Of a DNA stretch of 64,000 nt, positions 38,717-63,489 are shown in pieces (position 1 is the stretch's first letter; each line of letters starts with the position of its first letter). The DNA is from Minisyncoccota bacterium (GTDB taxonomy: Bacteria; Patescibacteriota; Minisyncoccia; Phycocordibacterales; DATDWN01). The translations under genes and the position numbers were made by a program. The DNA lies in NCBI GenBank assembly GCA_036517395.1, contig DATDWN010000016.1:11262-75261 (forward strand), given 5' to 3'. The notes under the pieces were generated by a model, which was not told the origin of the DNA, did no database searches, and was given only the letters and a program-made list of their open reading frames with translations.

Positions 38717-38804
38717 AATTTACAATTATCAATTTACAATTTCCAATCAATTCTCAATGTTCCAATGATTCAATTTGAAAATTGAGAACTGAAAATTGAA
38801 AATT
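38717..38804. repeat. ~88-bp AT-rich repeat (family D) abutting the apbE ATG
   Basis: ...CAATTCTCAATGTTCCAATGATTCAATTTGAAAATTGAGAACTGAAAATTGAAAATT-ATG; ~95% identical to 41342-41430. Confidence 0.75.
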
Positions 38805-41341: not shown

Positions 41342-41430
41342 GAATTTTCAATTATCAATTTACAATTTTCAATCAATTCTCAATGTTCCAATGATTCAAT
41401 TTGAAAATTGAGAACTGAAAATTGAAAATT
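41342..41430. repeat. ~88-bp AT-rich repeat (family D) abutting the msrA ATG
   Basis: Near-identical to 38717-38804. Confidence 0.75.
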
Positions 41431-41433
41431 ATC

Positions 41434-42438: not shown

Positions 42439-42590
42439 TCACATTCACAGCGTCCGAACGAGGAGTAACAATGGTAAAAACCCCGCCCCTCTGGGGCGGA
42501 ACAGGGGTCCAGGGCTTGCCATGGGGTTTCATACCATTGATCCGCACACTAATTCTGCCATGGTCCTGTTTTGAAATAATCCTAAAATAA
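42403..42590. repeat. 140-bp structured repeat (family C), copy 2, after msrB; mini-ORF 42471-42590
   Basis: Two substitutions versus copy 1; the one inside the mini-ORF is synonymous (CCC to CCA). Confidence 0.8.
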
Positions 42591-42677
42591 ATATCCATAA
42601 AATTTATTACAGTATATTGTTACAAATTCTGAAATTTAGTCAGGACAAAAAACAATGGCAGATTTAGTGTGCGGATG
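42541..42677. repeat. family A element, copy 3
   Basis: TCCGCACACTAATTCTGCCATGGTCCTG ... CAGGACAAAAAACAATGGCAGATTTAGTGTGCGGATG. Confidence 0.8.
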
Positions 42678-42766
42678 TAGGAGAGTAAATAATTCTTTGT
42701 GCATAACTCCTACCAGTCTCTCGCTTGTTTGATATAATTAAGGATATAAACTAACCCTTAATTATT

Positions 42767-43261
42767 ATGCAATCAATAAACAATTTTCTTTTTTCAAACC
42801 CAAAACTTTCTTGGTTCTGGCTTATTGTTAGAGTTTATGTAGGATATGAATGGATTATGGCTGGATATGAAAAAATAATAAATCCGGCATGGGTAGGGAG
42901 TTCCGCTGGGGGAGCGATAACCGGTTTTGTAAATGGGGCTTTGGCAAAAACTGCGGGAGCTCATCCGGACGTCTCAGAGTGGTATGCTTGGTTTCTAACT
43001 CACGCTGTTTTGCCCAATGCAAACCTCTGGTCTCATGCTGTTGCATACGGCGAGCTCGCGGTTGGTTTGGGTTTGATTTTTGGAGTGCTCACATTCTGGG
43101 CCGCTTTCTTTGGTTTCTTTATGAACTTAAATTACCTTCTGGCCGGAACCGTAAGCACGAATCCAGTTTTGCTCGTTCTCGCTCTTCTCATAATGCTGGC
43201 ACATCGCGTAGCTGGACGTATTGGATTTGATTACTATATATTTAAAAATAGATTTAGTTAG
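42767..43261 (+). CDS. DoxX-family membrane protein
   Basis: 'WLIVRVYVGYEWIMAGYEKI' DoxX-like; 4 TM; flanked by two direct MITE copies. Confidence 0.5.
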   Translation: MQSINNFLFSNPKLSWFWLIVRVYVGYEWIMAGYEKIINPAWVGSSAGGAITGFVNGALAKTAGAHPDVSEWYAWFLTHAVLPNANLWSHAVAYGELAVGLGLIFGVLTFWAAFFGFFMNLNYLLAGTVSTNPVLLVLALLIMLAHRVAGRIGFDYYIFKNRFS

Positions 43262-43262
43262 T

Positions 43263-43401
43263 TTATCCGCACACTAAATATGCCATCGTCCTGTTTTTAA
43301 ATAATATAAAAATAAATATCTTCTAATTTATCACAGTATATTGTTACAAATTATAAAACTAAGTCAGGACAAAAAACAATGGCAGAATTAGTGTTCGGAT
43401 G
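43263..43401. repeat. family A element, copy 4 (same orientation as copy 3, ~85% identical)
   Basis: TTATCCGCACACTAAATATGCCATCGTCCTG ... GGCAGAATTAGTGTTCGGATG. Confidence 0.8.
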
Positions 43402-43483
43402 AATACGAAGAATGGCAGGTCGCGTTGACCTGCCATCTAGGGGATTGACCCTATCTCGGTTTTGTCCCGCCGAGTTGCGGGTG

Positions 43484-44710
43484 TTACTTGTCGGTGCCGG
43501 TCCGAGCCGTCAGCGCCTTGGAACGGCGCTGACGCTTCGGAGTGACCGACATGTTGAACGAGGAGCCCGTCATCGTGATCATACCGGTCGCTTCGTCCAC
43601 CGTGAAGTGGGCGCCGCGATCGAACGTGATGACCCGATCGCCGATGGTGACCGTGGACCGACCCTCCGTCTCCGCTCCCGCACGAATGCGGGCGACGGCG
43701 ATTGAGGGGTGGGGAAGCGCCTGAGGTGCGGGTTGAACCGGTTCCGGTGCGGGCACCGCGACGGCGCGGGCCGTGAACGTGAATCCACTGAGACCCCCGC
43801 CGTAGAAGACGGGGTTCATGCATCCCTGAAGCGACATGAGCTCAGGCTCGCTGCCGTCGGGGAAGTGGAATCGTGCCCTGTACCCGGGTTGCGGTGGGTT
43901 GATCCGGCGCGGACGGGCGCGGTCGGCGTAACCGACCATGCCCTCCCCCGAGATCATACCTTCCTCGACTGGTCCGATGCGTCGGATGTTCTGGCGAACC
44001 GTGGCGGCTTCTGCACCGGGTGTCGCGCGAATGTACTGCGCGACCGCCTGGTCCTGGAAGTGGTTCGTCAAACGCTCCGTCTCCGTCGGCGTGATGCCGC
44101 CGACAACGATTGGAGGACCAGACGTGACCGGATTCTGCTCCAGCTCACGACCCCAGTGTTCACGGGCGTTCTCCTCGCGCTCCCTCGCCATCGCCGCATC
44201 ATGTCGTCTTGCGATGTAATCGCGAAGGAACCAGAGTGCGATGAATGTGACGGCGCCCAGCAGAAGCAGTAGGGAGAACCACAGATAGTTATCGTACCTG
44301 CTCGCCGATGCAGTCGCCGTGGTGCTTTCGGGCTTCTTCTCCTCGGCCGCCTTGACCACGTGGGTCTCGGGCGGGGGAGGTGTCGCCGCCTCGTTCGTGA
44401 TGAACTCGTTCACCGCCATGCCGGCGGGAACACACAACACGTCACCACGCGAATCGTACAGCCATGCGATGGTGTCCTTGCCCTTGCCTGACACCCGGGC
44501 TTGAAGCCCCGGGTTCGTGGCGAGTAGCATATTCCACTTGGGTCCGTATTTCTGGTACAACACGTCGCCGTGCTGGACCGTATAGACGGTTCCGTTGTAG
44601 ATCGCTTTGCAGTTGGTCGCGGTGAGCGGCGTGATGCGGTTGATCGTCTGCGCCGCGGCCGTGACGGCCGAGAGCGCGAGAACGATCGCGAGAGACGTGA
44701 TACGTTTCAT
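43484..44710 (-). CDS. high-GC LysM domain protein with signal peptide and central TM (foreign origin)
   Basis: ~65% GC versus an AT-rich flank; LysM 'YTVQHGDVLYQKYGPKWNMLLATNPGL'; signal 'MKRITSLAIVLALSAVTAAAQ'; TM 'LWFSLLLLLGAVTFIALWF'. Confidence 0.7.
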   Translation of the reverse strand: MKRITSLAIVLALSAVTAAAQTINRITPLTATNCKAIYNGTVYTVQHGDVLYQKYGPKWNMLLATNPGLQARVSGKGKDTIAWLYDSRGDVLCVPAGMAVNEFITNEAATPPPPETHVVKAAEEKKPESTTATASASRYDNYLWFSLLLLLGAVTFIALWFLRDYIARRHDAAMAREREENAREHWGRELEQNPVTSGPPIVVGGITPTETERLTNHFQDQAVAQYIRATPGAEAATVRQNIRRIGPVEEGMISGEGMVGYADRARPRRINPPQPGYRARFHFPDGSEPELMSLQGCMNPVFYGGGLSGFTFTARAVAVPAPEPVQPAPQALPHPSIAVARIRAGAETEGRSTVTIGDRVITFDRGAHFTVDEATGMITMTGSSFNMSVTPKRQRRSKALTARTGTDK

Positions 44711-46472: not shown

Positions 46473-46493
46473 TTGTGATACAATAGTCGGATG

Positions 46494-46640
46494 CCCTAGT
46501 AGTAGAGCAGAGCTCACTACAGGGCTATCCCGTAGTGAAAATGAAATTATGCACAAAAACACAAACTGGTCGGCATTATTAACATATAATCTTGAAATGA
46601 TACTAGGATCATAAGGCAATTTCATTTTCTACTACTGGGA
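46494..46640. repeat. family B element copy with TIRs (CCCGTAGTGAAAATGAAATT / AATTTCATTTTCTACTACTGGG), abuts dedA ATG
   Basis: Left CCCTAGTAGTAGAGCAGAGCTCACTACAGGG; right end ...CTACTACTGGG-ATG. Confidence 0.65.
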
Positions 46641-48373: not shown

Positions 48374-48450
48374 AACCCGCACACTAAAATTGGCATCGTC
48401 GGGATTACCGACAGTACAAAACATAATGCCAATATTAGTGTGCGGGTAAA
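48374..48450. repeat. family A element, copy 5 (short) in the xseA-xseB junction
   Basis: AACCCGCACACTAAAATTGGCAT...ATGCCAATATTAGTGTGCGGGTAAAC. Confidence 0.75.
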
Positions 48451-48634: not shown

Positions 48635-49426
48635 TTAGTCGTACTTGATTATTCTGCCGTCTCCTGGTTCTATTACGATGCCGTGTTTTTCTAGGTCGTT
48701 ATGTGAGTATGAAAACCCGATTCCGTTTCGCACAGGCGTGTTGCGGATTATTTTTAAAATTTCATCTTCATCATCTATTATTGTGTAAAGGGTTAAGTCT
48801 TCGGCGTCTATCATTCCACGGCTGAGCATCTCTTTTCTCATTAGTTCGTCTAGATGCTTCCAAAATTCCTTACCCACCAGTATGATTGGCACTTTTTCTA
48901 TTTTACCGGTTTGGACTAGTGTGATAATCTCAAAAAATTCGTCAAATGTTCCAAAACCTCCTGGAAAAAATATATATGATTCGGCCGAGAAACCCAGACA
49001 GACTTTCCGGCTAAAAAAATAGTGAAAGTTCAAGTATCGGTTTATATATGGATTTTGGACTTGATGATGGGGCAGTTCAACATTGAGACCGACAGATTCT
49101 CCACCAGCCTCGAAGGCTCCACGATTTGCCGCTTCCATAATTCCCGGACCTCCACCTGTAAATATGGCATATTTTAGTTCTGTTGCTATTCGGTGCCCAA
49201 GGTTGCGGGCTTTTATATAGTAGGGATTATCTTCTTTTATTAAGTTTCCGCCAAAAATAGTAACCGATTTTGGATAATTTCGTAAAAAATTAAAACCATC
49301 CGTGAACTCTTTAGATATGAGGTGTACTCTCTCCACGGCCGTGTCGTGAATCTCCTGTTTTGTAAGAGGTTGTATTCCAAGGTCTTTTGTCGGTAGATTT
49401 ATTTTTGGTTTTTCTGATTCTAGCAT
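48635..49426 (-). CDS. LOG family protein (Rossmann-fold nucleotide-binding / cytokinin riboside 5'-monophosphate phosphoribohydrolase-like)
   Basis: 'IFTGGGPGIMEAANRGA', 'PGGFGTFDE' LOG motifs. The ATG abuts the MITE repeat. Confidence 0.8.
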   Translation of the reverse strand: MLESEKPKINLPTKDLGIQPLTKQEIHDTAVERVHLISKEFTDGFNFLRNYPKSVTIFGGNLIKEDNPYYIKARNLGHRIATELKYAIFTGGGPGIMEAANRGAFEAGGESVGLNVELPHHQVQNPYINRYLNFHYFFSRKVCLGFSAESYIFFPGGFGTFDEFFEIITLVQTGKIEKVPIILVGKEFWKHLDELMRKEMLSRGMIDAEDLTLYTIIDDEDEILKIIRNTPVRNGIGFSYSHNDLEKHGIVIEPGDGRIIKYD

Positions 49427-49428
49427 AA

Positions 49429-49571
49429 TTTATCCGCACACTAACTTCTGTCTCGTTACCTGTGCAATGTATTAAAAGTTTATATAATTCTATTCCGCTA
49501 ATAATTATTATACCATGACAAATCTATAACAGGTAACAAAATGCACAAGATAGAAGTTAGTGTGCGGACAG
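49429..49571. repeat. family A element, copy 6, abuts LOG start (minus strand)
   Basis: Reverse complement of the left end reads GTGTGCGGATAAATTATG, which is the LOG start. Confidence 0.8.
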
Positions 49572-49603
49572 GTTATACTTTTTTGACCGAGTGTTTGCAA
49601 TTT

Positions 49604-50353
49604 TTACAACCCAACACTTTTCAAAAATACATTCAACTCCTCTCCAACTATTTCTCGGTAAGTGTTTTGAGCGATTTTTCCCAGTTCTATATTTTGAACA
49701 CGAACTCTTCGAAGATCTCGAACAGTGTACCCAAGCTTCTCGGTCATTCTTCTCAACTGGCGATTCTTGCCTTCAGTTAGCACAATGCTGAAAAAATTTT
49801 CCGACAGCTTTTTCACTATTGCCGGTTTAGTCACCCCATCTCCAATGTTCACCCCATCTTGCATGTGTTTCAGAAATGCCGGTGTAAATTTTCTATCAAC
49901 TTCTACAATATATTCTTTCTCATGATCATGCGCGGGGTTGAGAAGTCGGTCGGTTATCCTACCGTCGTTTGTCATAATCAATAGCCCGTAAGACTCCTTG
50001 TCCAGTCTCCCAACAGGGAACACCCCTGCGGGGAACTTTGCGCTCTGCATTATTCCTTTCTCTTTTTCTTGAGGGTTTGTACTGACTACCCCTCTCGGTT
50101 TGTTGTAGGCCAGATAAATGAGCTTCTTTTTTGTATGCACTCCTCTGATTTCCACATTGTCGCTTTCCATAACTTTATCACCGAGGATTGCCACTCGTCC
50201 GTTTATTAGAACCTTCTTACTTTTTATAAGCTCATCCACTCCCGTGCGAGTGGCTACGCCTTTGTGGGCGAGGTATTTATTTATCCGCACACCAACTCTG
50301 GCATCGCTTTTTGTGTTCTGGCTTAGTTTTGTAGCGTATTTTTTATTTTTCAT
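49604..50353 (-). CDS. rluB: rRNA pseudouridine synthase (RsuA/RluB family, S4 + catalytic domain)
   Basis: S4 'RINKYLAHKGVATRTGVDELI', catalytic 'PVGRLDKESYGLLIMTNDG'. The N-terminal ~24 codons lie inside a MITE copy, so the true start is uncertain. Confidence 0.8.
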   Translation of the reverse strand: MKNKKYATKLSQNTKSDARVGVRINKYLAHKGVATRTGVDELIKSKKVLINGRVAILGDKVMESDNVEIRGVHTKKKLIYLAYNKPRGVVSTNPQEKEKGIMQSAKFPAGVFPVGRLDKESYGLLIMTNDGRITDRLLNPAHDHEKEYIVEVDRKFTPAFLKHMQDGVNIGDGVTKPAIVKKLSENFFSIVLTEGKNRQLRRMTEKLGYTVRDLRRVRVQNIELGKIAQNTYREIVGEELNVFLKSVGL

Positions 50354-50424
50354 AAATTGATTTCAAGGGATAATTTTAGTTAAAAAGCAGAACAATGCTA
50401 GAGTTGGTGTGCGGGTTTATCCTC
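50281..50424. repeat. family A element, copy 7, contains the rluB 5' end
   Basis: TTATCCGCACACCAACTCTGGCATCGC ... GCTAGAGTTGGTGTGCGGGTTTATCC. Confidence 0.75.
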
Positions 50425-50443: not shown

Positions 50444-50577
50444 TTACCCACACACTAAATCTGCCATTGTTTTGTCCTGGTTCTGTCTATAATCTGCTAT
50501 TATACATTATAGTAGATTTGTAAGTGTTGTATAATATTATAAAAAAAGGACGATGGCAGAATTAGTGTGTGGGTTTA
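50444..50577. repeat. family A element, copy 8 (tandem with copy 7, upstream of the FKBP gene)
   Basis: TTTACCCACACACTAAATCTGCCATTGTTTTGTCCTGG ... GACGATGGCAGAATTAGTGTGTGGGTTTAC. Confidence 0.75.
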
Positions 50578-51067: not shown

Positions 51068-51134
51068 ACTCTACCTGACTCTTTAAACAAAAAAGTCTTA
51101 AAATAAGGGCTTTTTTGTTGTCCACAAAATCTGC

Positions 51135-51163
51135 TTGACAGCATAGACATAGTATGCTAAGCT
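51135..51163 (+). promoter_or_regulatory. near-consensus sigma-70 promoter (TTGACA-17-TGcTAAGCT, extended -10)
   Basis: TTGACA at 51135-51140, 17-nt spacer, TG at -15/-14, TAAGCT at 51158-51163. Confidence 0.55.
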
Positions 51164-51169
51164 ATACAT

Positions 51170-51576
51170 CAGGAAGGGTGCCTGATCAATAGAGCATCCG
51201 AGGGGACAACGTTGCAGGGGCGAAAAAAAAGAAAGGTCCATTTTTTCAGCGTCAGTCCCGAGGAGGCCAGATTGGCTTGATGTTTCTAGGGCATCAAACG
51301 GGTGAGAAGAGCTAGACTTCTGCCCGGAGCCAGTCTGATGGTTGTGTGGCCGCCTCAATGTTTCACACTCGGCGGGGGGTTATCCCGCTTAAATACATCC
51401 AGGCAGTTACGTTCATGTTGCCTAAGTGCCATGTATGTAACACCCGTCAGAGCGGAAGCGTTTATTGCTTTCGCCGAGGACAACCTGTTTAGTTAGAGGG
51501 GTAGAGGGCCGACGAAAAACTAGCCGCCGACTCTCTCACCCAATCACGCGCCGATCCCTCTGGGCTCGGCGTTTTG
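51170..51576 (+). ncRNA. candidate structured RNA (~400 nt) or long cis-regulatory leader of tgt; class undetermined
   Basis: GC-enriched relative to flanks; starts downstream of the promoter; ends in hairpin GCCGATCCCTCTGGGCTCGGC plus a T-run, 47 nt before the tgt ATG; no convincing ORF. Confidence 0.4.
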
Positions 51577-51622
51577 CATTATAAAAATTTCTTTTTTTAT
51601 GCATAAATGCTAATCTGGTTTA

Positions 51623-55021: not shown

Positions 55022-55050
55022 TTTTATGATATTCTGTGTGAGGAGGGGTT

Positions 55051-55152
55051 ATGATGCACATTCTCGCCTGGGCATTTGTGCCGGTGCTTGTGATTCTGGT
55101 TTTCGGGTCTGTGCTGAATCTCAGCACAACCAAGATCACCAAGCGCTGAATA
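55051..55152 (+). CDS. 33-aa GC-rich hydrophobic mini-ORF with strong SD (MMHILAWAFVPVLVILVFGSVLNLSTTKITSAE)
   Basis: AGGAGG 4-5 nt upstream; single TM helix; followed by hairpin GGCGGGTC-GACCA-GACCCGCC and a T-rich tail. Confidence 0.4.
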
Positions 55153-55162
55153 GGTTTTGAGG

Positions 55163-55200
55163 CGGCGGGTCGACCAGACCCGCCGTTCGTCGTATTTGTG
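55163..55200 (+). terminator. intrinsic terminator-like hairpin after the mini-ORF
   Basis: 8-bp GC stem followed by TTCGTCGTATTTGTGTG. Confidence 0.45.
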
Positions 55201-55252
55201 TGTTTGTGGTAAGATATTGTCCTCACCCAATAGGCAGTCGGGGAGTTTATTT

Positions 55253-55394
55253 GCATGTCCGCACACCAACTTTGGCATTGTCTCTTTGTTGCTAGGTTAG
55301 GAATTACATCAAATTTTAGATGTATATCTATATATGGATGTATGTATAAACTCTGAGACAGGGCAATGATGCCAAAGTTGGTGTGCGGATAAAT
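55253..55394. repeat. family A element, copy 9, abuts uvrA ATG
   Basis: CATGTCCGCACACCAACTTTGGCATTGTCTC ... GATGCCAAAGTTGGTGTGCGGATAAATATG. Confidence 0.8.
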
Positions 55395-58013
55395 ATGAAA
55401 AATGAAGGTTTAATCATCGTTAAAGGGGCGCGGACCCATAACTTGAAAAATATCACAGTCGAAATGCCACGGAACAAAATGATGGTTTTTACCGGTTTGT
55501 CTGGCTCGGGCAAATCCTCTCTGGCTTTTGATACTATATTTGCCGAGGGACAGAGACGATACGTTGAGTCTTTGTCCTCATACGCTCGACAATTTTTGCG
55601 TCAGATGCAAAAGCCGGATGTGGACGAAATATCCGGCCTCTCCCCTGCCATTTCCATTGATCAGAAATCTCGTTCAAACAACCCACGATCGACCGTGGCC
55701 ACTATCACAGAAATTTACGACTACTTGCGTATTTTGTATTCACGCATCGGCCATCCGCATTGTTTGGTTTGTGGCGATGAAATCACAAAGCTCTCGAACG
55801 AAGAAATTAAGAATTTTGTCTTGGAGAAAATTTCTAATTATCTTACACCAACACGAAGTGTTGGCACAGAAAGGTATAAGGCGTCAGCTACGACAGAAAT
55901 ATACGCTCCGGTGGTTAAGGGTCGCAAGGGTGAATATTATCAAATGCTTTATGACTTGCTAGGCAAAGGCTACTCGCATGTCCTTATAGACGGTGAGAAA
56001 AAATCACTTCGAGAGAAAATTGAACTTTCGAAAACAAAAAGACATGTTATAGATGTGCTTGTGGATAGTATTTCTCTATTAGATTTTAGGATAGATAAAA
56101 AAAGCGCAGAAGAGAGGCTGTCGGAAGATTTGGAAAAGGCGCTTGGTGAGTCGGATGGTCAGGTCAAAGTGGTTTTCCGAGATATGGCCCTTGAAAAAAA
56201 CAAGGACTATAAGCCCGAAAAAGTTTTCATGTCCTCCAAGCTGTCGTGTCCCAAAGATGGCTACTCCTATCCTGAAGTCGAACCACGGCTTTTTTCTTTC
56301 AACTCTCCTTATGGTGCCTGTCAAGAATGTAATGGTTTGGGCACACGACATTTTTTCGGCAAGGAAGCTTGTCCCAAGTGTAAGGGCGCTCGTCTGCGCG
56401 AGGAAGCGCTTCACGTTTTGATTGGAAAGCGCAATATCGTCGAGCTGACTGCGATGTCCATAAAAGATGCTTATGATTTCGTAACAAATTTAAAACTGAC
56501 AGAACGAGAGAAAAATATTTCCAAAGTTGTTATGCGAGAAATCGAGTCACGACTTCTTTTTATGATTAATGTCGGTATTGAATATCTTTCTCTGGACAGG
56601 CGTGCTCACACTCTTTCTGGCGGAGAAGCTCAGAGAATTCGCCTAGCATCCCAACTTGGTTCCGGACTTGTTGGCGCTCTGTATGTTCTTGACGAGCCCA
56701 CTATCGGACTACACTCTCGCGATAACGATCGGCTAGTTAAAACACTTCTTAACCTGCGAGATCTAGGAAACACTATTATTGTGGTCGAGCACGATGAAGA
56801 CACTATTTTCGCCTCGGATTATATTGTTGATATCGGGCCTCGTGCCGGAGTTCACGGTGGCCATGTTGTTGTGGCGGATTATCTAGACAAACTAATCACG
56901 GCAAAAACTAATCCTTCTGGATCTCTGACGCTCGACTATTTGCGCGGAGATAAAGTTCTGGAAGTGCCAGAAGAGAGACGAACATATCCAAAAGGCGATC
57001 TACAAATCCGTGGTGGAAAGATTTTTAATATAAAAAATATGAACGTCGATATTCCGCTCGGCAGATTTATTGCCGTCACAGGCGTTTCTGGCTCGGGCAA
57101 GTCTTCTTTTGTTTACGAAATTCTGCACAAAAACCTCCAAGCGCGTTTTGAGAGAAAATATCGCTCGGCAGAAATTTTTAACTGCAAATCTTTCACTGGC
57201 ACAGAATATCTAGGCAGGGCGATTTTGATAGATCAATCCCCAATAGGTCGAACGCCTCGATCGAACCCAGCGACATACACAGGTTCGTGGACATTTATTC
57301 GGGATTTATTCGCCGAATCAGCCGAAGCTCGAGCTCGTGGTTGGAAAGCCAATAGATTTTCTTTCAATGTGAAGGGTGGTCGATGCGAAACATGTCAGGG
57401 TAACGGTATGATAGAAGTGGAGATGCATTTCTTGCCGACTGTTTATGTGCCGTGCGATGTCTGCAAAGGTAAAAGATTTATGAAAGAGACCTTGGAAGTG
57501 CATTATAAGAAAAAAAATATTTATGATGTGTTGAAAATGACCGTGGAGGAGGCGTTAAAGTTTTTTGAAGATATCCCGTCGATATACGATCGTCTGAAAT
57601 CAATGGATGATGTTGGTCTTGGCTATCTCGAGCTCGGGCAGAGCGCCACAACTCTTTCTGGTGGCGAAGCTCAGAGAGTGAAAATATCCTCAGAGCTTTA
57701 TCGTCCGCATTTACAAAAAACTATTTATCTTTTGGACGAGCCAACTATCGGTTTGCACTATGAAGATGTCAAAAAATTAATCGAGATTTTGCAAAAGCTT
57801 GTGAACAAAGGAAACACCGTTCTTGTCATCGAGCACAATATGGATATTATAAAGTCGTGTGACTATGTTTTGGACATAGGCCCAGAGGGTGGAGATGGTG
57901 GGGGGCAACTGGTGGCCAAAGGTACACCTGAGGAAGTAGCGGAGAATGAGAAGTCGTACACTGGTAAGTATTTAAAGAAAGCACTTAAACAATATAAGGC
58001 GTATAGGAAATAA
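55395..58013 (+). CDS. uvrA: excinuclease ABC subunit A
   Basis: '[10 protein letters not shown]', two ABC modules '[14 protein letters not shown]' / 'GVSGSGKSS', 'LSGGEAQR' x2, Zn fingers. ATG at 55395 is fused to the MITE repeat (alternative GTG at 55383). Confidence 0.95.
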
Positions 58014-58020
58014 ACAAAAC

Positions 58021-58044
58021 GGCGCCGAGGTTGTCCTCGGCGCC
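58021..58044 (+). terminator. perfect 10-bp GC hairpin after uvrA (GGCGCCGAGG-TTGT-CCTCGGCGCC)
   Basis: Seen directly; lacks a U-tract. Confidence 0.4.
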
Positions 58045-58062
58045 TACCAGACTCATCCAGGC

Positions 58063-58236
58063 TTATCGTCGCCGAAGCCGAATCGTGTCACAGATCTCGT
58101 CGATGATGCAACCAAGCATGGTCAGCCCTGCTCCCAAAGCGAGAGTATGACGAATCGTCATCATGTCCGCTGTGAGCAACACTATCGCCATCTCGAGAAG
58201 TGCAAACCACAGGTTGTTTCGTTGCCTCTCAGTCAT
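58063..58236 (-). CDS. 57-aa GC-rich small membrane protein with strong SD (MTERQRNNLWFALLEMAIVLLTADMM...)
   Basis: AGGAGGG 4 nt upstream of the ATG on the minus strand; two hydrophobic helices; GC-rich versus flanks. Confidence 0.4.
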   Translation of the reverse strand: MTERQRNNLWFALLEMAIVLLTADMMTIRHTLALGAGLTMLGCIIDEICDTIRLRRR

Positions 58237-58270
58237 GAGCCCTCCTACTTCGTATAATATCATATTTATA

Positions 58271-59668
58271 ATGAATAATCGAAATATTAAAAAAGTAATA
58301 TCTAAATTCCCGGATTCTCCTGGGGTGTATATTTTCCTTGGCTCGCCGAAACGTAGTGGAGGCGGCAAGTCCAAAAGTGAAATTCTTTACATAGGCAAAG
58401 CCACATCCCTCCGTGACCGAGTTAGAACTTACATGTCAAGGACAGTCCTTGACACTCGAAGTCCACTCATAGCTAAGATGCTGGAGGAGTTTGAAGATAT
58501 CGAATACATAAAAACAGATTCTGTTTTGGAAGCACTTGTTTTGGAAGCCAATCTCATAAAAAAACACCAGCCGGAAGCAAATATAAAAGAAAAAGATAAT
58601 AAAAGTTTTAACTTTGTTGTGATTACCAAAGAAGATTTTCCTCGTGTTTTAGTTATCCGCGGTCGTGAACTGCTGCAATCGCGCATTATGTCAAGGACGC
58701 CCCTTGCCAAAAATTCAAAAATGGCAAAGGGCGTCTTTGACATTAAAAATCAGTTCGGTCCATTTCCAAACGGCGGACAGCTGAAGGAAGCACTGAAAAT
58801 AATTCGCAAGATGTTTCCGTATCGGGATAAGTGTAATTCTGCGGAAGTCCGACTTCCGCAGAAAACGTATTCAGGGAAGCGACCGAGCGGGAACGATGGG
58901 AGTACTGAGGCCAACAGGCCGAATGTAGCCTGTTTTAATCGTCAGATAGGTTTGTGTCCAGGAGTTTGTACAGGAGAAATTACAAAAGAGGATTATCAGA
59001 AACAAATCCAAAATATTATTTTGTTTTTTCGGGGTAATAAAAAGCGATTGCTGAAAAACCTTGAGAAACAAATGCGAGGTTTCGCAAAAAATCGAGAGTT
59101 TGAGAAAGCCGGCGAAGCTAAAAAAACAATTTTTCTTCTAAAACATATTCAGGATATATCGCTTATAAAAGAAGATTGCAAAGGTTCGACCTTAAAGAAT
59201 GGTGCCCAAGGTCGAACCTTGGATTCAGAGACATTCCGAATCGAATCTTATGATGTCGCACACATGTCTGGACAAAATGTTGTTGGGGTTATGATTGTTG
59301 TCGAGGATGGTGAAGTGAAGAAGTCTGATTATAGGAAGTTCAAAATAAAAAACAATCCAAGTGTAAACGATACTAAAGCCTTGACAGAAGTACTGTCGAG
59401 AAGGTTGGCACATATAGAATGGCGATTTCCTGATTTGATTGTTGTCGATGGAGGGACGGCGCAAAAGAGAGTGATGGAAAAGATTTTGCGGGAGAATAAA
59501 GTGAATATTCCCGTTGTTTCTGTTGTCAAAGATGAGAGACATAAACCGAAGAATATACTAGGTGACAGACAGTGGTTAAAATATGAGAGAGAAATAATTC
59601 TAGCAAACAGCGAATCACATAGATTTGCTATTGGATATCATAGAAAGCTCAGAGGGAAGTTTGGATAA
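58271..59668 (+). CDS. uvrC: excinuclease ABC subunit C (short form, lacks C-terminal HhH)
   Basis: GIY-YIG 'GVYIF...ILYIGKATSLRDRV', UvrBC-binding 'LLKNLEKQMRGFAKNREFEKAGEAKK', RNaseH-like endonuclease domain. ATG at 58271 preferred over the track start. Confidence 0.85.
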   Translation: MNNRNIKKVISKFPDSPGVYIFLGSPKRSGGGKSKSEILYIGKATSLRDRVRTYMSRTVLDTRSPLIAKMLEEFEDIEYIKTDSVLEALVLEANLIKKHQPEANIKEKDNKSFNFVVITKEDFPRVLVIRGRELLQSRIMSRTPLAKNSKMAKGVFDIKNQFGPFPNGGQLKEALKIIRKMFPYRDKCNSAEVRLPQKTYSGKRPSGNDGSTEANRPNVACFNRQIGLCPGVCTGEITKEDYQKQIQNIILFFRGNKKRLLKNLEKQMRGFAKNREFEKAGEAKKTIFLLKHIQDISLIKEDCKGSTLKNGAQGRTLDSETFRIESYDVAHMSGQNVVGVMIVVEDGEVKKSDYRKFKIKNNPSVNDTKALTEVLSRRLAHIEWRFPDLIVVDGGTAQKRVMEKILRENKVNIPVVSVVKDERHKPKNILGDRQWLKYEREIILANSESHRFAIGYHRKLRGKFG

Positions 59669-59771: not shown

Positions 59772-60770
59772 TTGATATTATACAATATATCTATGCCAAC
59801 TCTTTCTCCATCACTTCACATAGGCGTACTTCGTGGGGGACCGTCGTCGGAGTATGATGTCTCACTAAAAAGTGGTGCTAATGTCCTACGGCATCTTTCG
59901 GAAACTCACAGGCCGCTGGATATTTTTATTTCTCGTGATGGCAAATGGCATATAGCGGGTGTGGAGAGATCACCGGAAAGAATTTTGCAAAATGTCGATG
60001 TTGTTTTCAATGCTTTGCACGGTGCCTATGGTGAGGATGGTGGAGTACAGGAAGTTCTCGGCTACCTCGGCGTTCCGTATACCGGCTCCGGGCGGTATGA
60101 GTCCGCTATCGCCATGAATAAATGGATGACAAAGGAAAGGGCGACGGCGGCCGGAATAAAAACACCAGTTTTTGCCATTGTGAGAGAGACTGACAATTTG
60201 GCGCAAAAAGCCAAAGAGATTTTCAACTCCATACCGCATCCGCTCATAGTTAAACCAGCATGTGGAGGCTCGTCCCTAGGGCTTTATAAAGTGTCCTCCT
60301 ATAGCGAACTCTTGTCCGCTCTGGAAAGTGTCTTGTCTGAGCATGGTTCGGCGATCGTGGAGGAGTGTATTATTGGTAAAGAAGCTACATGTGGTGTTAT
60401 AAATAATTTTCGTGAGCGAGATGTGTATGCACTACCTCCTATCGAGATTATTCCGCCAAAAGGCAAACTGTTTGACTATGATTCAAAATATAATGGAGAG
60501 AGTAGGGAAATCTGCCCTGGGAATTTTAGTCAATTGGAGAAAAAAGAAATAGAAAGATTATCGGCTCTCATTCACCAAACTCTGGGCTTATCGCATTATT
60601 CTCGATCAGATTTTATTGTTTCACCACGTCGTGGGATTTATTTTCTGGAGGTCAATACTCTTCCCAGATTAACTCCAGAGTCTCTTCTACCAAAGTCTCT
60701 CAAAGCTATTGGTTCTAGTGTTCAGGAGTTTTTGCATCATGTTATCGGCCTTGCATTAAATAAAAAATAG
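59772..60770 (+). CDS. ddl: D-alanine--D-alanine ligase
   Basis: 'GVLRGGPSSEYDVSLKSG', ATP-grasp 'VKPACGGSSLGL', 'EVNTLP'. Confidence 0.85.
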   Translation: MILYNISMPTLSPSLHIGVLRGGPSSEYDVSLKSGANVLRHLSETHRPLDIFISRDGKWHIAGVERSPERILQNVDVVFNALHGAYGEDGGVQEVLGYLGVPYTGSGRYESAIAMNKWMTKERATAAGIKTPVFAIVRETDNLAQKAKEIFNSIPHPLIVKPACGGSSLGLYKVSSYSELLSALESVLSEHGSAIVEECIIGKEATCGVINNFRERDVYALPPIEIIPPKGKLFDYDSKYNGESREICPGNFSQLEKKEIERLSALIHQTLGLSHYSRSDFIVSPRRGIYFLEVNTLPRLTPESLLPKSLKAIGSSVQEFLHHVIGLALNKK

Positions 60771-60782
60771 AAGGATAGGTTA

Positions 60783-60937
60783 CCCCAGTAGTAGAGCGTA
60801 GCTCACTACAGGGTAAACCCCGTAGTGAAAATGACATAAAATTTTATGCAAAGTTATTACTTTGCCATGTCATTTTCTACTACGGGGTTATCCACAGCGC
60901 ACTTGACTTGTGATACCCCGTAGGGGTATAGTGAGTT
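60783..60937. repeat. family B element copy containing the csoR promoter/operator
   Basis: CCCCAGTAGTAGAGCGTAGCTCACTACAGGG...CCCCGTAGTGAAAATGACAT...ATGTCATTTTCTACTACGGGG...ATACCCCGTAGGGGTAT. Confidence 0.65.
60903..60932 (+). promoter_or_regulatory. csoR-copA promoter (TTGACT-18-TATAGT) with embedded CsoR-type operator palindrome ATACCCCGTAGGGGTAT
   Basis: Perfect 7-3-7 palindrome at 60913-60929, like known CsoR operators (B. subtilis copZA type). The -10 box ends 6 nt before the csoR ATG, implying a leaderless mRNA. Confidence 0.55.
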
Positions 60938-61203: not shown

Positions 61204-63489
61204 ATGGCATTCACTTCAGTATATAAAATAAATGGCATGCACTGCGCTTCGTGCGCTGGTATCATAGAAAAGATTTTTAGAAAAACAGATGGTGTCGTGT
61301 CAGTAGATGTGAATTATGGAACTGAGAGCGCCAGACTGTCATTTGATAACACAAAAACTAATCCGGCAGAACTTTCAAGGCAAATCGAAAAACTTGGCTA
61401 CTCCTTGGTTTTGCCCAACAAAGAATCAAAACGGGAAAAATTATCTGAATTGAAATCTATGCGAAACAAGGTTTTTTCCGCTATGCCTCTGGCTGTTATA
61501 AGCGTTGTTATCATGGGTTGGGATATTTTTTCTAGGTTTGGTCTTGTTCCAGAGATGTCATATTTTTGGCAAAACATTTTTCAATATCTGCTTCCACTGA
61601 TGGCCATCGCTACATTTGTTATCCTCGGTAAACCATATTTGCTCGGAGTATATCGTTTTCTACGTTATGGCAGGGCGAACATGGACACGCTCATAGGCAT
61701 AGGCACATCCGTCGCTTTTCTCTACAGTTCTGTCGTCACGGTTTTTGGAGAAAGTCTAAAAGCATTTATAAATACTCAAAGCACATATTTTGATGTTACC
61801 ATTATCGTTATTACTTTCATTGCTCTTGGAAAGTATCTTGAGGCACGGTCAAAATTGAAAACAGGAGATGCTATAGAAAAACTTTTGAACCTTCAAGCCA
61901 AAACAGCGCTAGTGGTCCGTGATGGCAAAGAAATTGAAATCTCAGTTGACCAAGTGGTGCATGGTGATTTGATTGTGGTAAAACCTGGGAGCGCTATTCC
62001 TGTTGATGGTATTTTGACCAAAGGGTCTTCGTATATAGATGAATCAATGATTACAGGTGAGCCGATGCCAGTGGCTAAAAAAGTTGGTGATGCTGTGGTT
62101 TCTGGCACGATAAATACGACGGGTTCATTTATTTTTGAAGCTACAAAAATCGGTTCGGAAACTATACTGTCTCGAATTATAAAAATGGTAGAAGAGGCGC
62201 AAGGGAGCAAGGCGCCTATCCAAGCACTGGCTGATAAAATCTCTAGTATTTTTGTGCCGGTGGTTTTAGTTTTGTCTTTTGTGGCTCTGGGATTGTGGCT
62301 TGTTATTGGCACGCAGTATCTCGGTTTTTCTCAAGCACTCTCTTTCGGTCTGGTTTCTTTTGTCGGTATTCTCGTCATCGCCTGTCCATGCGCATTGGGA
62401 CTTGCAACTCCCACGGCTATTATTGTCGGTGTTGGTAAGGGAGCAAGAGAAGGTATACTAATAAAAGATGCGGGGACTCTAGAAAAACTTGGCAAAGTAA
62501 ATGTGGTTGTGGTGGACAAGACGGGAACGCTAACACGAGGAAAACCCGAACTTGTCTCTATTAAAAATTTTTCTAACAAAAAAGACGCAGAATTAATTTC
62601 AATCCTTGCTTCACTTGAAAATAAATCAGAACACCCCATCGCTCACGCAGTTGTCTCTTATGCAATTGAAAATAAAATCGGTTTAACTGCTCTGGATACT
62701 TTTGAGGCGATTAAAGGCAAGGGTGTCAAAGGGGTTGTTGAAAATACGGAATATTATGCGGGCAACACTAAACTTGTAAAAGATCTCAGACTTCATTTTG
62801 ATAGCACGGGGAATGAGAAAGAAACGCTAGAAGGGAAAACTCCTGTTATTTTGACAACAAAAGAAAAAGTTCTCGGGGTTTTTATGATAGCAGATAGCAT
62901 TAAACCGGAGGCTGTAGAAGCGGTAAAAAATCTGCATAAACTGGGCATAAAAGTTGTCATGCTTACTGGGGATGATAGAAATACTGCCACATTTATTGCA
63001 AGGCAGGTTGATATAGACGAAGTTGTTGCGGAGGTCATGCCAGAGGACAAACTTAGGATAATAAAGGAATTACAGGAAGGAAGATTTGAAAATTGGAAAT
63101 TGGAAATTGGAAATTCCAACCGAAGGTTGGTGGTGGCCATGGCTGGGGATGGAGTGAACGATGCACCAGCTCTGGCACAGGCCGATGTCGGTATTGCTAT
63201 GGCTACGGGGACAGATGTGGCTATTGAGAGCGCCGGCATTACTCTGCTTCATGGTGATATTTCTAAACTAGTCAAGGCTATAAATCTGTCAAAAATAACA
63301 ATGCGAGGCATAAGACAAAATCTGTTCTGGGCTTTCTTTTACAATATTATTGGTATCCCACTTGCTGGTGGCTTGTTTTATCCAATTTTTGGCTGGATGC
63401 TCTCACCCGTGTTTGCTGGGTTTGCCATGGCCATGTCTAGCGTCTCGGTGGTTAGCAATTCATTAAGGTTAAAAACTAAAAAATTATAA
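61204..63489 (+). CDS. copA: copper-translocating P-type ATPase
   Basis: N-terminal HMA 'GMHCASCAG', 'CPC' ([11 protein letters not shown]), 'DKTGTLT', '[10 protein letters not shown]'. Contains an in-frame (GAAATTG)n insertion at 63088-63117. Confidence 0.9.

What the first reader, a model, noticed from the sequence alone, without database searches (positions are those of the whole stretch)
58045..58260. Second GC-rich small membrane ORF (57 aa, minus strand) with strong SD immediately after uvrA
The ORF MTERQRNNLWFALLEMAIVLLTADMM... has AGGAGGG 4 nt upstream, lies on the strand opposite uvrA/uvrC, and sits in a GC-rich ~200-bp patch. Together with the 55051 ORF, uvrA is flanked on both sides by GC-rich mini-ORFs.
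Basis: seen in the sequence. Interest (0 to 1): 0.5.

Follow-up and report, generated by a model that had tools for sequence, protein, structure and literature searches.

The report
Small membrane-protein gene between uvrA and uvrC
The 57-codon reading frame is very probably a real, self-contained gene for a tiny two-helix membrane protein that sits backwards between the DNA-repair genes uvrA and uvrC of an uncultured Parcubacteria (CPR) bacterium; related genomes keep a fast-evolving gene of this kind in the same slot, and what it does is unknown.

Summary
The ORF runs on the minus strand from ATG 58236 to TAA 58063 (57 aa). AGGAGGG lies 3 nt, not 4, before the ATG. A 10-bp GC hairpin plus T-run follows the stop and ends on the uvrA stop codon. 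The ORF has 53% GC and GC3 of 0.61, in a 40% GC genome whose ordinary genes have GC3 of 0.48 or less.

This combination is unlikely by chance. An ATG ORF of at least 50 codons with an SD and membrane-grade hydrophobicity appears in 0.07% of shuffles of the spacer.

The organism is a Paceibacteria/Zambryskibacteria-like CPR bacterium. In 25 distinct uvrA-uvrC spacers of its clade, 20 carry a hydrophobic small ORF on the same antisense strand, against 4 on the sense strand. These ORFs are also GC3-rich, often SD-led, and have dN/dS of 0.1-0.4. The ATG/SD/-10 module facing uvrC aligns across genomes.

Sequence homologues are only a handful of 54-57 aa ORFs in that same slot. No Pfam, NCBIfam, PHROG or PADLOC family matches. 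The RNA is not unusually structured.

Verdict: a real, lineage-restricted small membrane-protein gene. It probably shares a bidirectional promoter with uvrC. Its function is not established. It is a new member of a known kind and of modest interest.

The parts
58063..58236 (-). Coding sequence of the 57-aa small protein. ATG 58236-58234, stop TAA 58065-58063. Two hydrophobic helices and a basic C-terminus (RLRRR).
   Evidence: GC1/2/3 is 0.54/0.42/0.61. Shuffle test. JGI gene callers called a 66-aa version from ATG 58263.
58240..58246 (-). Shine-Dalgarno-like AGGAGGG, 3 nt (CTC) upstream of the ATG.
   Evidence: Only 6 of 49 large genes in the window have even a 4-mer SD, and 1 of 49 has a 5-mer.
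58253..58264 (.). Shared AT-rich -10 region between the two divergent start codons. Plus strand: TATAAT at 58253-58258, 12 nt before the uvrC ATG. Minus strand: TATTAT at 58259-58254, within TATGATATT at 58264-58256. Inferred to be a bidirectional promoter.
   Evidence: Sequence. TATGATATT matches exactly only 5 times in the window, and 2 of these precede the two SD-led mini-ORFs flanking uvrA. TATAAT is invariant in the alignment with L002, L013 and L003. The module recurs in most of 25 relatives. Transcription start sites were not measured.
58011..58044 (-). Intrinsic terminator of the mini-gene. Hairpin GGCGCCGAGG-ACAA-CCTCGGCGCC at 58044-58021, then GTTTTGTTTA at 58020-58011, which overlaps the uvrA stop codon. 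There is no T-run on the plus-strand side.
   Evidence: The same layout (uvrA stop, A-run, GC hairpin) appears in many relatives.
58271..59668 (+). uvrC (465 aa), the divergent neighbour. Its ATG is 34 bp from the mini-gene ATG. Context only.
55395..58013 (+). uvrA (872 aa), the convergent neighbour. Context only.
55025..55197 (+). Sister unit on the other side of uvrA. TATGATATT at 55025-55033, AGGAGGG at 55041-55047, a 32-aa hydrophobic ORF at 55051-55149, and a terminator hairpin at 55161-55187 followed by GTTCGTCGTAT.
   Evidence: Relatives also carry plus-strand small hydrophobic ORFs in the uvrB-uvrA spacer.

Best explanation
This is a genuine, independently expressed small gene. It encodes a 57-aa protein with two hydrophobic helices. 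By the positive-inside rule, both ends probably face the cytoplasm and the two helices sit in the cell membrane. The gene lies antisense in the spacer between uvrA and uvrC of a Paceibacteria (Parcubacteria, CPR) genome.

Shown by sequence:
- The unit is complete and compact: a -10-like element, AGGAGGG, ATG, 57 codons, TAA, then a strong hairpin plus T-run that stops exactly at the uvrA stop codon.
- It is the local representative of a positionally conserved small membrane-protein gene. That gene evolves very fast, is GC3-rich, and fills this slot throughout the clade.

Inferred:
- It is transcribed from a bidirectional promoter shared with uvrC. One near-symmetric AT-rich -10 element can be read on both strands, with predicted start sites about 13-18 bp apart. 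RNA polymerase could then bind in only one orientation at a time, so the mini-gene and uvrC would compete for initiation.
- uvrA has no plus-strand T-run terminator. Read-through from uvrA towards uvrC would therefore be antisense to the mini-gene.
- The SD, exceptional in a genome whose ordinary genes lack one, would give the mini-gene its own mode or strength of translation initiation.

My guess is that the protein acts in the membrane as a small accessory or modulatory subunit rather than as an enzyme. Its partner and physiological role are not established.
For: Anatomy.

Chance is unlikely: ORF plus SD plus hydrophobicity occurs in 0.07% of shuffles.

Taxon and synteny: uvrA-uvrC adjacency holds in 57 related loci.

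Strand asymmetry of hydrophobic ORFs in 25 distinct spacers: 20 on the minus strand (13 with an SD) against 4 on the plus strand (none with an SD). More distant relatives (UvrA 67-79% identical) also carry minus-strand 60-115 aa two-helix ORFs there.

The ATG/SD/-10 module aligns across genomes. Minus-strand terminators abutting the uvrA stop recur in relatives.

Weak but specific homology to same-slot ORFs:
- BLASTP 33% identity over 58 columns, single-pair E = 7e-6.
- Best non-self phmmer hit among 3049 small ORFs, E = 0.12.
- Shared C-terminal motif I[IM]DE[IV]C.[AT]IR.

Slot ORFs behave as coding sequence: dN/dS of 0.10-0.43 in 7 of 8 measurable pairs, and the replacements in the one pair listed codon by codon (L011/L095) are mostly conservative hydrophobic swaps.

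The mRNA body is not structured (z = -0.04). This argues against a non-coding RNA.

Published work describes bidirectional promoters built on a symmetric -10 element, with start sites usually 18 bp apart (PMC10268837).
Against: - No expression data exist for this ORF.
- No close homologue of this ORF exists, so selection on it cannot be measured.
- The family link rests on marginal statistics: E = 0.12 to 0.43 against a few thousand ORFs. Exhaustive profile searches of 5.8 and 1.84 billion proteins returned only the input sequences.
- GC3 (0.61) and codon usage sit in the extreme 2.6% of 57-codon windows of the window's large genes. This could mean foreign or non-adapted DNA.
- Some Parcubacteria lack the anti-SD motif (PMC9297842). 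The 16S rRNA is not in the window, so AGGAGGG may not act as an SD here.
- The promoter call comes from consensus matching in AT-rich DNA. The standard scan reported no full -35/-10 promoter there.
- AlphaFold gave one long helix at pLDDT 72, which is uninformative.
Confidence: 0.65

Rival explanations
1. It is the toxin of a type I toxin-antitoxin-like module, or a DNA-damage-linked membrane peptide in the manner of TisB or DinQ. The small hydrophobic protein would depolarise or perturb the membrane. It would be held in check by antisense RNA, here uvrA read-through or the 5' end of the uvrC transcript, and its expression would be tied to the repair genes.
For: - The product is under 60 aa and hydrophobic, and the gene lies in an intergenic spacer.
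- Relatives carry 2-3 tandem copies (L011, L016).
- Sequence turnover is rapid.
- Antisense transcription from uvrA is plausible, because the hairpin has no plus-strand T-run.
- The gene shares a promoter region with a repair gene.
- TisB and DinQ are SOS-induced membrane peptides (PMC8145889, PMC3567139). Type I toxins are typically under 60 aa and paired with an sRNA (PMC11264685).
Against: - No plus-strand promoter/terminator pair for an antitoxin sRNA was found in the spacer.
- Only 34 bp separate the ATG from the uvrC ATG, and the predicted start sites at 58247-58252 would leave a leader of about 10-16 nt. That leaves no room for the long structured 5' UTR that sequesters the SD in known type I toxin mRNAs.
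- The mRNA body is not structured (z = -0.04).
- The protein has two helices and a conserved, charged, Cys-containing C-terminal motif. This suggests a specific interaction rather than generic membrane damage.
- No LexA-type box was identified.
- There are no PADLOC, Pfam or NCBIfam hits.
Confidence: 0.1
2. It is a remnant of horizontally acquired DNA, a cassette or 'moron' from a mobile element or another organism, lodged in a permissive spacer. It would be expressed from its own imported signals but have no role tied to this host or to the uvr genes.
For: - GC3 is 0.61, against 0.48 or less for all native large genes. Only the clearly foreign-looking gene 43484-44710 (GC3 0.77) is higher.
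- It has a perfect SD in a genome that otherwise lacks SDs.
- Spacer content is highly variable in relatives, from 1 to 6 small genes, including an acidic 70-135 aa protein.
- All slot ORFs are GC3-rich: 0.55-0.75 against 0.25-0.35 for uvrA/uvrC.
Against: - The start codon, SD and -10 module are alignable and positionally fixed across the clade. Occupancy extends to relatives with UvrA only 67-79% identical. This indicates long residence, not recent arrival.
- No flanking repeats, integrase or tRNA are present.
- There is no match in viral contigs or PHROGs.
- Profile searches found the family only in this slot.
Confidence: 0.12
3. It is a chance ORF. The spacer would really be non-coding: a terminator for convergent transcription plus the uvrC promoter, GC-rich for structural or insulating reasons.
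For: - An ATG ORF of at least 50 codons arises in 14.5% of shuffles of this GC-rich spacer.
- AGGAGGG is not enriched in the window.
- Codon usage is atypical.
- There are no database homologues outside the slot.
Against: - The joint occurrence of ORF, SD and hydrophobic profile appears in 0.07% of shuffles.
- A minus-strand terminator has no purpose without a minus-strand transcript, yet it is conserved in relatives.
- Hydrophobic ORFs in relatives show a 20:4 strand asymmetry.
- dN/dS is below 1 in slot ORFs.
- The AGGAGGG-N3-ATG arrangement and the TATGATATT motif are repeated at the 55051 ORF.
Confidence: 0.08
4. It is a structured non-coding RNA. GC-rich islands in AT-rich genomes are often RNA genes.
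For: The patch is GC-rich. The whole spacer folds better than shuffles on both strands (z = -2.4 and -2.8).
Against: - The excess stability comes from the terminator hairpin. Without it, z = -0.04.
- No Rfam family reaches threshold; the best hit is 20.8 bits against a gathering score of 43.
- The body of the spacer is not alignable between relatives, while the ORF property is kept.
Confidence: 0.02

Closest known systems
Unnamed 54-57 aa 'hypothetical proteins' in the uvrA-uvrC spacer of other Paceibacteria MAGs. These are P0002, P0003, P0004 and P0006 of the L011 type, and P0005, annotated by NCBI as 'MAG: hypothetical protein V4690_01430 [Patescibacteria group bacterium]'.
   Same: - Same slot and same antisense orientation.
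- Same length.
- Two hydrophobic segments and a polar N-terminus.
- Shared C-terminal motif I[IM]DE[IV]C.[AT]I[RK] followed by basic residues.
- SD-led and GC3-rich.
   Different: Identity is only 13-38% and the statistics are marginal. In those genomes the gene is duplicated (2-3 copies) and is the distal part of a 4-6 gene antisense mini-operon with 70-135 aa soluble proteins. The window has a single gene.
SOS-linked type I toxins TisB/IstR-1 and DinQ/AgrB of E. coli (PMC8145889, PMC3567139, PMC5066626).
   Same: A small hydrophobic inner-membrane peptide gene in an intergenic spacer, genetically tied to DNA-damage genes, with potential antisense transcription across it.
   Different: TisB and DinQ have a single helix of 27-29 aa. 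They have dedicated sRNA antitoxins and long structured, processed 5' UTRs. None of these features is seen here. No LexA box was identified, and toxicity is unknown.
Bidirectional bacterial promoters built on a near-symmetric -10 element (Warman et al. 2021, as summarised in PMC10268837 and PMC12825309).
   Same: A single AT-rich hexamer region reads TATAAT on one strand and TATTAT on the other. It sits between two divergent genes whose start codons are 34 bp apart. Predicted start sites are about 18 bp apart.
   Different: This is a sequence inference only, with no start-site mapping. Promoter rules in CPR bacteria are not established.
Small bacterial membrane proteins that modulate larger membrane complexes, for example AcrZ, KdpF, MgtS and CydX. 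This comparison rests on my own knowledge and was not tested here.
   Same: Proteins under 60 aa, consisting of little more than a membrane helix or helices, with poor sequence conservation and frequently unannotated.
   Different: Those proteins are usually single-helix and encoded next to, or co-regulated with, their partner. Here the neighbours are cytoplasmic repair proteins and no partner can be named.

Membership tests
Same-slot two-helix small protein family (P0002-P0006 type, unnamed) | Length 54-57 aa with two hydrophobic segments. | tested here: met
   The window ORF is 57 aa, with segments at about residues 9-28 and 32-48. Members are 54-57 aa.
Same-slot two-helix small protein family (P0002-P0006 type, unnamed) | C-terminal motif I[IM]DE[IV]C.[AT]I[RK] followed by basic residues. 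| tested here: met
   The window has IIDEICDTIRLRRR. The members have IMDEVC[IK]AI[RQ] and NQICEAIR. C49 and I52 are invariant in alignment A2.
Same-slot two-helix small protein family (P0002-P0006 type, unnamed) | Encoded between uvrA and uvrC on the opposite strand. | tested here: met
   every contig that carries a member shows this arrangement.
Same-slot two-helix small protein family (P0002-P0006 type, unnamed) | Statistically significant sequence similarity. | tested here: inconclusive
   Single-pair BLASTP E = 7e-6. phmmer E = 0.12 among 3049 small ORFs, where it is the top non-self hit. An HMM built from 5 relatives, without the window ORF, scores it E = 0.43 among 5476 ORFs, the second-ranked non-member.
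Type I toxin-antitoxin system | Small (under 60 aa) hydrophobic membrane protein. | tested here: met
   Definition from PMC11264685.
Type I toxin-antitoxin system | A cis- or trans-encoded antisense sRNA antitoxin gene. | tested here: not met
   No plus-strand promoter-like or terminator-like pair lies within 58014-58270. No Rfam sRNA reaches threshold. Antisense RNA by uvrA read-through remains possible but is not a dedicated gene.
Type I toxin-antitoxin system | A structured toxin mRNA or long 5' UTR that occludes the ribosome-binding site. | tested here: not met
   With the predicted start sites the leader can be only about 10-16 nt, because the uvrC ATG is 34 bp away. The mRNA body has z = -0.04.
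Type I toxin-antitoxin system | Toxicity or membrane depolarisation on overexpression. | not testable with these tools
   Requires an experiment.
Class II (two-helix) phage holins | Two membrane helices plus a charged C-terminus. | tested here: met
   The holin features themselves are recalled from general knowledge.
Class II (two-helix) phage holins | A phage or lysis-cassette context with an adjacent endolysin. | tested here: not met
   The neighbours are uvrA and uvrC. There is no significant PHROG hit (best E = 0.11). A partner gene of the cassette found in relatives (the 93-aa L011 protein) has no relative in viral contigs; the scan with the small-protein alignment itself could not be run.
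Bidirectional promoter with a symmetric -10 element | Overlapping -10 hexamers on opposite strands between divergent genes. | tested here: met
   TATAAT at 58253-58258 (+) and TATTAT at 58259-58254 (-). TATAAT is conserved in the alignment with relatives.
Bidirectional promoter with a symmetric -10 element | Divergent transcription start sites 7-25 bp apart, typically 18 bp. | not testable with these tools
   Needs dRNA-seq or 5' RACE. Criterion from PMC10268837.
Any curated protein family (Pfam, NCBIfam, PHROGs, PADLOC) | Score above the family's threshold. | tested here: not met
   no hit, or only sub-threshold membrane-helix noise.
Any Rfam RNA family | Score at or above the gathering threshold. 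| tested here: not met
   best hit 20.8 bits against a threshold of 43.

The most novel reading that the evidence does not exclude
The mini-gene and its sister at 55051 may belong to a previously undescribed class of CPR mini-genes. Members would be GC3-rich, SD-led units each with its own terminator, encoding small membrane proteins in a lineage that otherwise translates without an SD.

The uvrA-uvrC copy would be hard-wired to nucleotide-excision-repair expression in two ways: a shared bidirectional promoter with uvrC, and antisense read-through from uvrA. The effect would be a membrane-acting switch coupled to DNA damage, functionally analogous to TisB or DinQ but built differently and conserved by position across Paceibacteria.
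Probability: 0.1. Interest if true: 0.6.

Novelty: new member of a known kind. Interest (0 to 1): 0.33.

Why it matters
Small membrane proteins are routinely missed or dismissed in annotation, and CPR genomes are full of orphan genes.

Here a 57-codon orphan can be argued to be real on several grounds: positional conservation, strand asymmetry, a conserved start/SD/promoter module, and purifying selection in related slot genes. This holds although sequence searches over billions of proteins find essentially nothing.

It also raises three testable oddities:
- Synonymous sites in these slot genes stay GC-rich in AT-rich genomes.
- They carry perfect SD sequences where housekeeping genes have none.
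- Sharing one -10 element with uvrC may couple their expression to DNA repair.

If that coupling is real, it would be a compact example of promoter competition in an uncultured lineage. If not, the gene remains an ordinary lineage-specific small membrane protein.

Tried and rejected
- Repeat or mobile-element origin. The 301-bp region has no other copy in the window, only a 15-nt hairpin match at 51472-51486. No tRNA or integrase lies nearby.
- Known RNA family. Rfam at gathering and permissive thresholds gave nothing credible. The apparent structure is only the terminator.
- Database homology. The word-indexed search with the single protein found only the protein itself. The profile search of 5.8 billion proteins and the exhaustive HMM search of 1.84 billion representatives returned only the input sequences.
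- Curated families. Pfam, PHROGs, PADLOC and NCBIfam were scanned for this ORF, for its cassette partners in relatives, and for slot ORFs of distant relatives. Nothing exceeded a threshold.
- Structure. AlphaFold2 gave a single long helix (pLDDT 72, pTM 0.29). Foldseek against the PDB gave no hit. This was uninformative and not pursued.
- Viral link. A viral-contig scan with the 93-aa cassette partner found nothing. The small-protein alignment was too variable to scan with.
- Closer relatives for a direct dN/dS on this ORF. Neither genome contigs nor metagenome contigs holds anything closer than about 66% UvrC identity.
- Shared upstream motif with the 140-bp repeat ORF. None was found.
- jackhmmer from the window ORF over local small ORFs did not grow beyond the query.
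Full report
1. WHAT IS IN THE SEQUENCE

The finding is accurate. On the minus strand an ATG at 58236 opens a 57-codon frame that ends with TAA at 58065-58063. The product is MTERQRNNLWFALLEMAIVLLTADMMTIRHTLALGAGLTMLGCIIDEICDTIRLRRR.

AGGAGGG lies at 58246-58240.

Eighteen nucleotides after the stop comes a perfect 10-bp hairpin with 9 GC pairs (58044-58021). It is followed by GTTTTGTTTA, which runs into the uvrA stop codon at 58011-58013. On the plus strand the same hairpin is preceded by an A-run and followed by no T-run. It therefore reads as a terminator for the minus strand only.

uvrA (ATG 55395 to 58013) is convergent with the ORF. uvrC (ATG 58271, 465 aa) is divergent, and only 34 bp separate the two start codons.

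The ORF has 52.6% GC, against 40.4% for the window. A Kyte-Doolittle filter finds two hydrophobic stretches, about residues 9-28 and 32-48. The short polar N-terminus and the RLRRR C-terminus suggest a helical hairpin with both ends in the cytoplasm. That topology is an inference from the positive-inside rule.

2. IS IT MORE THAN CHANCE?

An ORF alone is not. In 20,000 shuffles of the 257-nt spacer, an ATG ORF of at least 50 codons appears in 14.5%. Requiring a 4-mer SD leaves 1.3%. Requiring a membrane-grade 17-mer as well leaves 0.07%.

AGGAGGG as a word is not enriched: 5 copies found, 4.8 expected. Its placement is what stands out.

The genome hardly uses SDs. Of 49 large genes in the window, 6 have even a 4-mer SD and 1 has a 5-mer. 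This fits the report that the anti-SD motif is often undetectable in Parcubacteria 16S rRNA (PMC9297842).

The ORF is also a compositional outlier:
- GC1/2/3 is 0.54/0.42/0.61, against 0.50/0.37/0.37 for the window's genes.
- It lies in the top 2.6% of 57-codon windows for GC3 and the bottom 2.6% for synonymous codon fit.
- All the higher windows appear to come from one foreign-looking gene at 43484-44710 with GC3 of 0.77; it is the only large gene with GC3 above 0.48.

3. NOT AN RNA GENE, NOT A REPEAT

Rfam gives nothing at gathering thresholds and only noise below them. The spacer folds better than shuffles (z = -2.4 and -2.8), but this is the terminator. The mRNA body without it has z = -0.04. 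The region has no second copy in the window.

4. WHO CARRIES IT, AND WHAT DO RELATIVES HAVE THERE?

UvrC-based searches place the window in Paceibacteria/Zambryskibacteria-like Parcubacteria. The best species-level relatives have UvrC 61-66% and UvrA 84-94% identical.

uvrA followed by uvrC is kept in 57 fetched loci, but the spacer ranges from 22 to about 2460 bp.

In the close clade (UvrA at least 80% identical) there are 25 distinct spacers:
- 20 contain an ATG/GTG ORF of at least 30 aa with a hydrophobic helix on the minus strand, and 13 of these have an SD.
- Only 4 have such an ORF on the plus strand, and none has an SD.

More distant relatives (UvrA 67-79%) again show minus-strand two-helix ORFs of 60-115 aa in the slot. 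A few genomes have uvrA and uvrC almost abutting (22-79 bp; L021, L060, L074).

The slot ORFs belong to several sequence groups that BLAST cannot connect. All are GC3-rich, 0.55-0.75 against 0.25-0.35 for the flanking uvrA/uvrC. Where two related copies exist they evolve like coding sequence. Nei-Gojobori dN/dS was 0.10, 0.14, 0.24, 0.32, 0.36, 0.36 and 0.43, with one pair at 0.74. In the one pair listed codon by codon (L011/L095) the replacements are mostly conservative hydrophobic swaps. A caveat applies: distant pairs were chosen by protein similarity, which biases the ratio downward. The close pairs are the fair ones (L011/L095 0.36; L003/L006 0.10; L011/L012 0.36).

Many relatives repeat the layout 'uvrA stop, A-run, GC hairpin'. 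That is a minus-strand terminator ending at uvrA.

5. THE CONSERVED PART IS THE DIVERGENT START MODULE

A DNA alignment of the window with L002, L013 and L003 shows that the body of the spacer is unalignable. The uvrC-proximal end does align. Read on the plus strand, it consists of:
- CAT, the mini-gene's ATG;
- 3-10 nt;
- CCTCC, the SD;
- 5-15 nt;
- an invariant TATAAT;
- 8-13 nt;
- the uvrC ATG.

Most of the 25 upstream regions show the same order of elements.

In the window, TATAAT (58253-58258, plus strand) overlaps TATTAT (58259-58254, minus strand). The latter sits within TGATATTAT and TATGATATT. The predicted start sites, about 58265 (+) and about 58247-58252 (-), are 13-18 bp apart. 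This is the geometry described for bidirectional promoters built on a near-symmetric -10 element, in which polymerase binds in one orientation or the other (PMC10268837, PMC12825309).

This remains an inference. The standard -35/-10 scan reports no canonical promoter there, and CPR promoter rules are unknown.

6. SEQUENCE RELATIVES OF THIS PARTICULAR ORF

The single-protein search of 5.8 billion sequences found only the ORF itself, as a 66-aa JGI gene call from ATG 58263.

By eye and by local tests, the ORF resembles 54-57 aa ORFs in the same slot of L011 (two tandem copies), L016 (three copies) and L095-L099. The shared features are a polar N-terminus with S/N-N-L, two helices, and a C-terminal I[IM]DE[IV]C.[AT]I[RK] motif followed by basic residues. 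The statistics are:
- BLASTP 33% identity over 58 columns, E = 7e-6 as a single comparison.
- phmmer top non-self hit, E = 0.12 among 3049 small ORFs.
- An HMM built without the window ORF ranks it second among non-members, E = 0.43 among 5476 ORFs. The first-ranked non-member is the small ORF in the uvrB-uvrA spacer of L003, which carries ...ATIVEAIRKK.

I regard membership as probable, not proven.

Profile searches of 5.8 billion and 1.84 billion proteins found no further members. Every contig that carries a member shows the uvrA/uvrC context.

In L011 and L016 the two-helix genes are the distal genes of a 4-6 gene antisense mini-operon. It starts next to uvrC and includes 79-aa, 93-103-aa and acidic 70-135-aa proteins. 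None matches Pfam, PHROGs or PADLOC. The window keeps a single gene.

7. THE SISTER MINI-ORFS

- TATGATATT at 55025-55033, then 7 nt, AGGAGGG, 3 nt, ATG.
- A terminator at 55161-55187.

TATGATATT occurs exactly only five times in the window. Two of those copies are these, at matching distance from the SD. L013 has TATGATATTAT before its slot ORF as well.

A third unit at 12710-12579 (-, 43 aa, 52% GC, GGAGGG-N5-GTG) ends with a hairpin followed by GTTCGTCGTAT. The same 11-mer follows the 55051 unit's hairpin.

Relatives also carry plus-strand small hydrophobic ORFs in the uvrB-uvrA spacer. So 'uvrA flanked by GC-rich mini-ORFs' is true here and recurs in the clade. The ORF of the 140-bp repeat (20199-20338 and 42402-42541) does not share these upstream motifs.

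8. HOW IT MOST LIKELY WORKS

Shown: this is a complete, compact transcription-translation unit for a two-helix small protein. It sits in a slot that the clade keeps filled with such genes.

Inferred:
- Transcription starts from a -10 element shared with uvrC, so the two genes would compete for initiation.
- uvrA read-through is antisense to the mini-gene, because no plus-strand U-tract terminator precedes uvrC.
- The SD gives the mini-gene a mode or strength of translation initiation that its SD-less neighbours lack.
- The product inserts into the cell membrane and acts through protein-protein or protein-lipid contacts. The conserved acidic/Cys/basic C-terminal motif favours a specific partner.

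I put about 0.65 on 'real small membrane-protein gene, positional orthologue of the clade's slot gene'.

9. RIVALS

- Type I-toxin-like or DNA-damage-linked peptide (0.10). Size, hydrophobicity, tandem copies in relatives and possible antisense transcription fit. A dedicated sRNA, a long structured leader and an SOS box are absent.
- Foreign cassette remnant (0.12). GC3, the SD and variable content fit. The fixed, alignable start module, deep positional conservation, and the lack of mobile-element or viral links argue against it.
- Chance ORF in a regulatory spacer (0.08). Argued against.
- Structured RNA (0.02). Argued against.

10. NOVELTY AND SCORE

The gene is already called as a 'hypothetical protein' in JGI data. 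One probable homologue in an NCBI MAG (P0005) is also annotated as hypothetical. It belongs to the known kind 'lineage-specific small membrane protein'.

What is new is modest:
- positional conservation of a fast-evolving antisense mini-gene inside the uvrA-uvrC pair of Paceibacteria;
- its GC3-rich, SD-led character in an AT-rich, SD-poor genome;
- the shared -10 element with uvrC.

Interest is 0.33. The most novel reading not excluded is a repair-coupled membrane switch or a distinct class of CPR mini-genes. It has a probability of about 0.1 and would deserve about 0.6.

Noticed in passing
window 25295-25445, 31421-31505, 42533-42678, 43258-43402, 48377-48449, 49422-49579, 50276-50418, 50448-50576, 55250-55397: A dispersed family of intergenic elements of about 45-150 bp, bounded by the inverted repeat ATCCGCACAC(T/C)AA ... 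TT(A/G)GTGTGCGGAT. The right arm often ends GGATAAATATG, directly at a start codon. Examples are uvrA at 55395 and, apparently, the gene beginning near 25443 (position estimated from the repeat table, not checked). The elements look MITE/REP-like or regulatory. No Rfam family matches them.
   Followed up: no
window 55025-55197 (+): A second SD-led mini-gene between uvrB and uvrA: 32 aa (MMHILAWAFVPVLVILVFGSVLNLSTTKITKR), 52% GC, with its own terminator. It shares TATGATATT and AGGAGGG-N3-ATG with the studied ORF. Relatives also carry plus-strand small hydrophobic ORFs in the uvrB-uvrA spacer.
   Followed up: partly
window 12527-12710 (-): A third GC-rich (52%) SD-led small hydrophobic ORF: 43 aa, GGAGGG-N5-GTG. 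It is followed by a hairpin and the 11-mer GTTCGTCGTAT, which also follows the hairpin of the 55051 unit. These are the only two exact copies in the window.
   Followed up: partly
window 20199-20338 and 42402-42541: A 140-bp direct repeat, 99% identical, 22 kb apart and GC-rich. It contains an internal hairpin (GTGAATGTG-TAAT-CACATTCAC) and a GAGGAG-led short ORF (MVKTPPLWGGTGVQGLPWGF...). It does not share the upstream motif of the uvrA-flanking mini-ORFs.
   Followed up: partly
window 12757-12787 (-), 46478-46531 (+), 60767-60820 (+): Three copies of a hairpin-forming motif, CCCnAGTAGTAGAGCnnAGCTCACTACAGGG, in intergenic regions. One lies just upstream of the 12710 mini-ORF and one between ddl and the CsoR-like/copper-ATPase genes. 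It may be a regulatory RNA or operator element.
   Followed up: no
window 43484-44710 (-): A 408-aa ORF whose N-terminus looks like a signal peptide, with GC1/2/3 of 0.62/0.52/0.77 in a genome where all other large genes have GC3 of 0.48 or less. It looks horizontally acquired and is flanked by the CCGCACAC inverted-repeat elements.
   Followed up: no
window 51098-51579: A 47% GC non-coding stretch that JGI annotates as a feature with a 19-residue product. This could be a tmRNA with a tag peptide. Neither ARAGORN nor Rfam recognises it, which could mean a divergent CPR tmRNA or another structured RNA. It contains a 15-nt exact match, on the opposite strand, to the loop and distal-arm part of the studied terminator hairpin (51472-51486).
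   Followed up: partly
window 11596-11698 (-): Rfam finds a tRNA (61 bits) spanning 103 nt that ARAGORN does not call. It may be a tRNA gene with an insertion or intron.
   Followed up: no
window 4607-4729 (+): A LOOT RNA (RF03000) match at 71.8 bits, well above the gathering score.
   Followed up: no
whole window: Ordinary genes essentially lack Shine-Dalgarno sequences: 6 of 49 have a 4-mer and 1 of 49 a 5-mer. -10-like boxes often sit 8-15 nt before start codons, which suggests leaderless or very short-leader mRNAs.
   Followed up: partly
L011 2511-3960, L016 2187-3955, L096-L099: In some relatives the uvrA-uvrC slot holds a 4-6 gene antisense mini-operon. It comprises a 79-aa protein (MxxxIxVKLxY...), a 93-103-aa protein, a very acidic 70-135-aa protein and 2-3 tandem two-helix proteins. 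All are GC3-rich and SD-led, and none has a Pfam, PHROG or PADLOC match.
   Followed up: partly
window 5135-8361 (+): Four consecutive genes begin with the same zinc-ribbon-like N-terminus, M(Y/F)C(E/K)(H/N)CG...KFC.KCG, with 70-72% DNA identity over 71 nt. They form a tandem paralogous family.
   Followed up: no
window 38717-38806 and 41343-41432; also 21436-21504, 22801-22883, 23784-23874, 63087-63119: AT-rich intergenic repeats built on GAAAATTG/CAATTTTC-like units. One pair is 90 nt long and 98% identical, and several copies form inverted pairs flanking genes.
   Followed up: no
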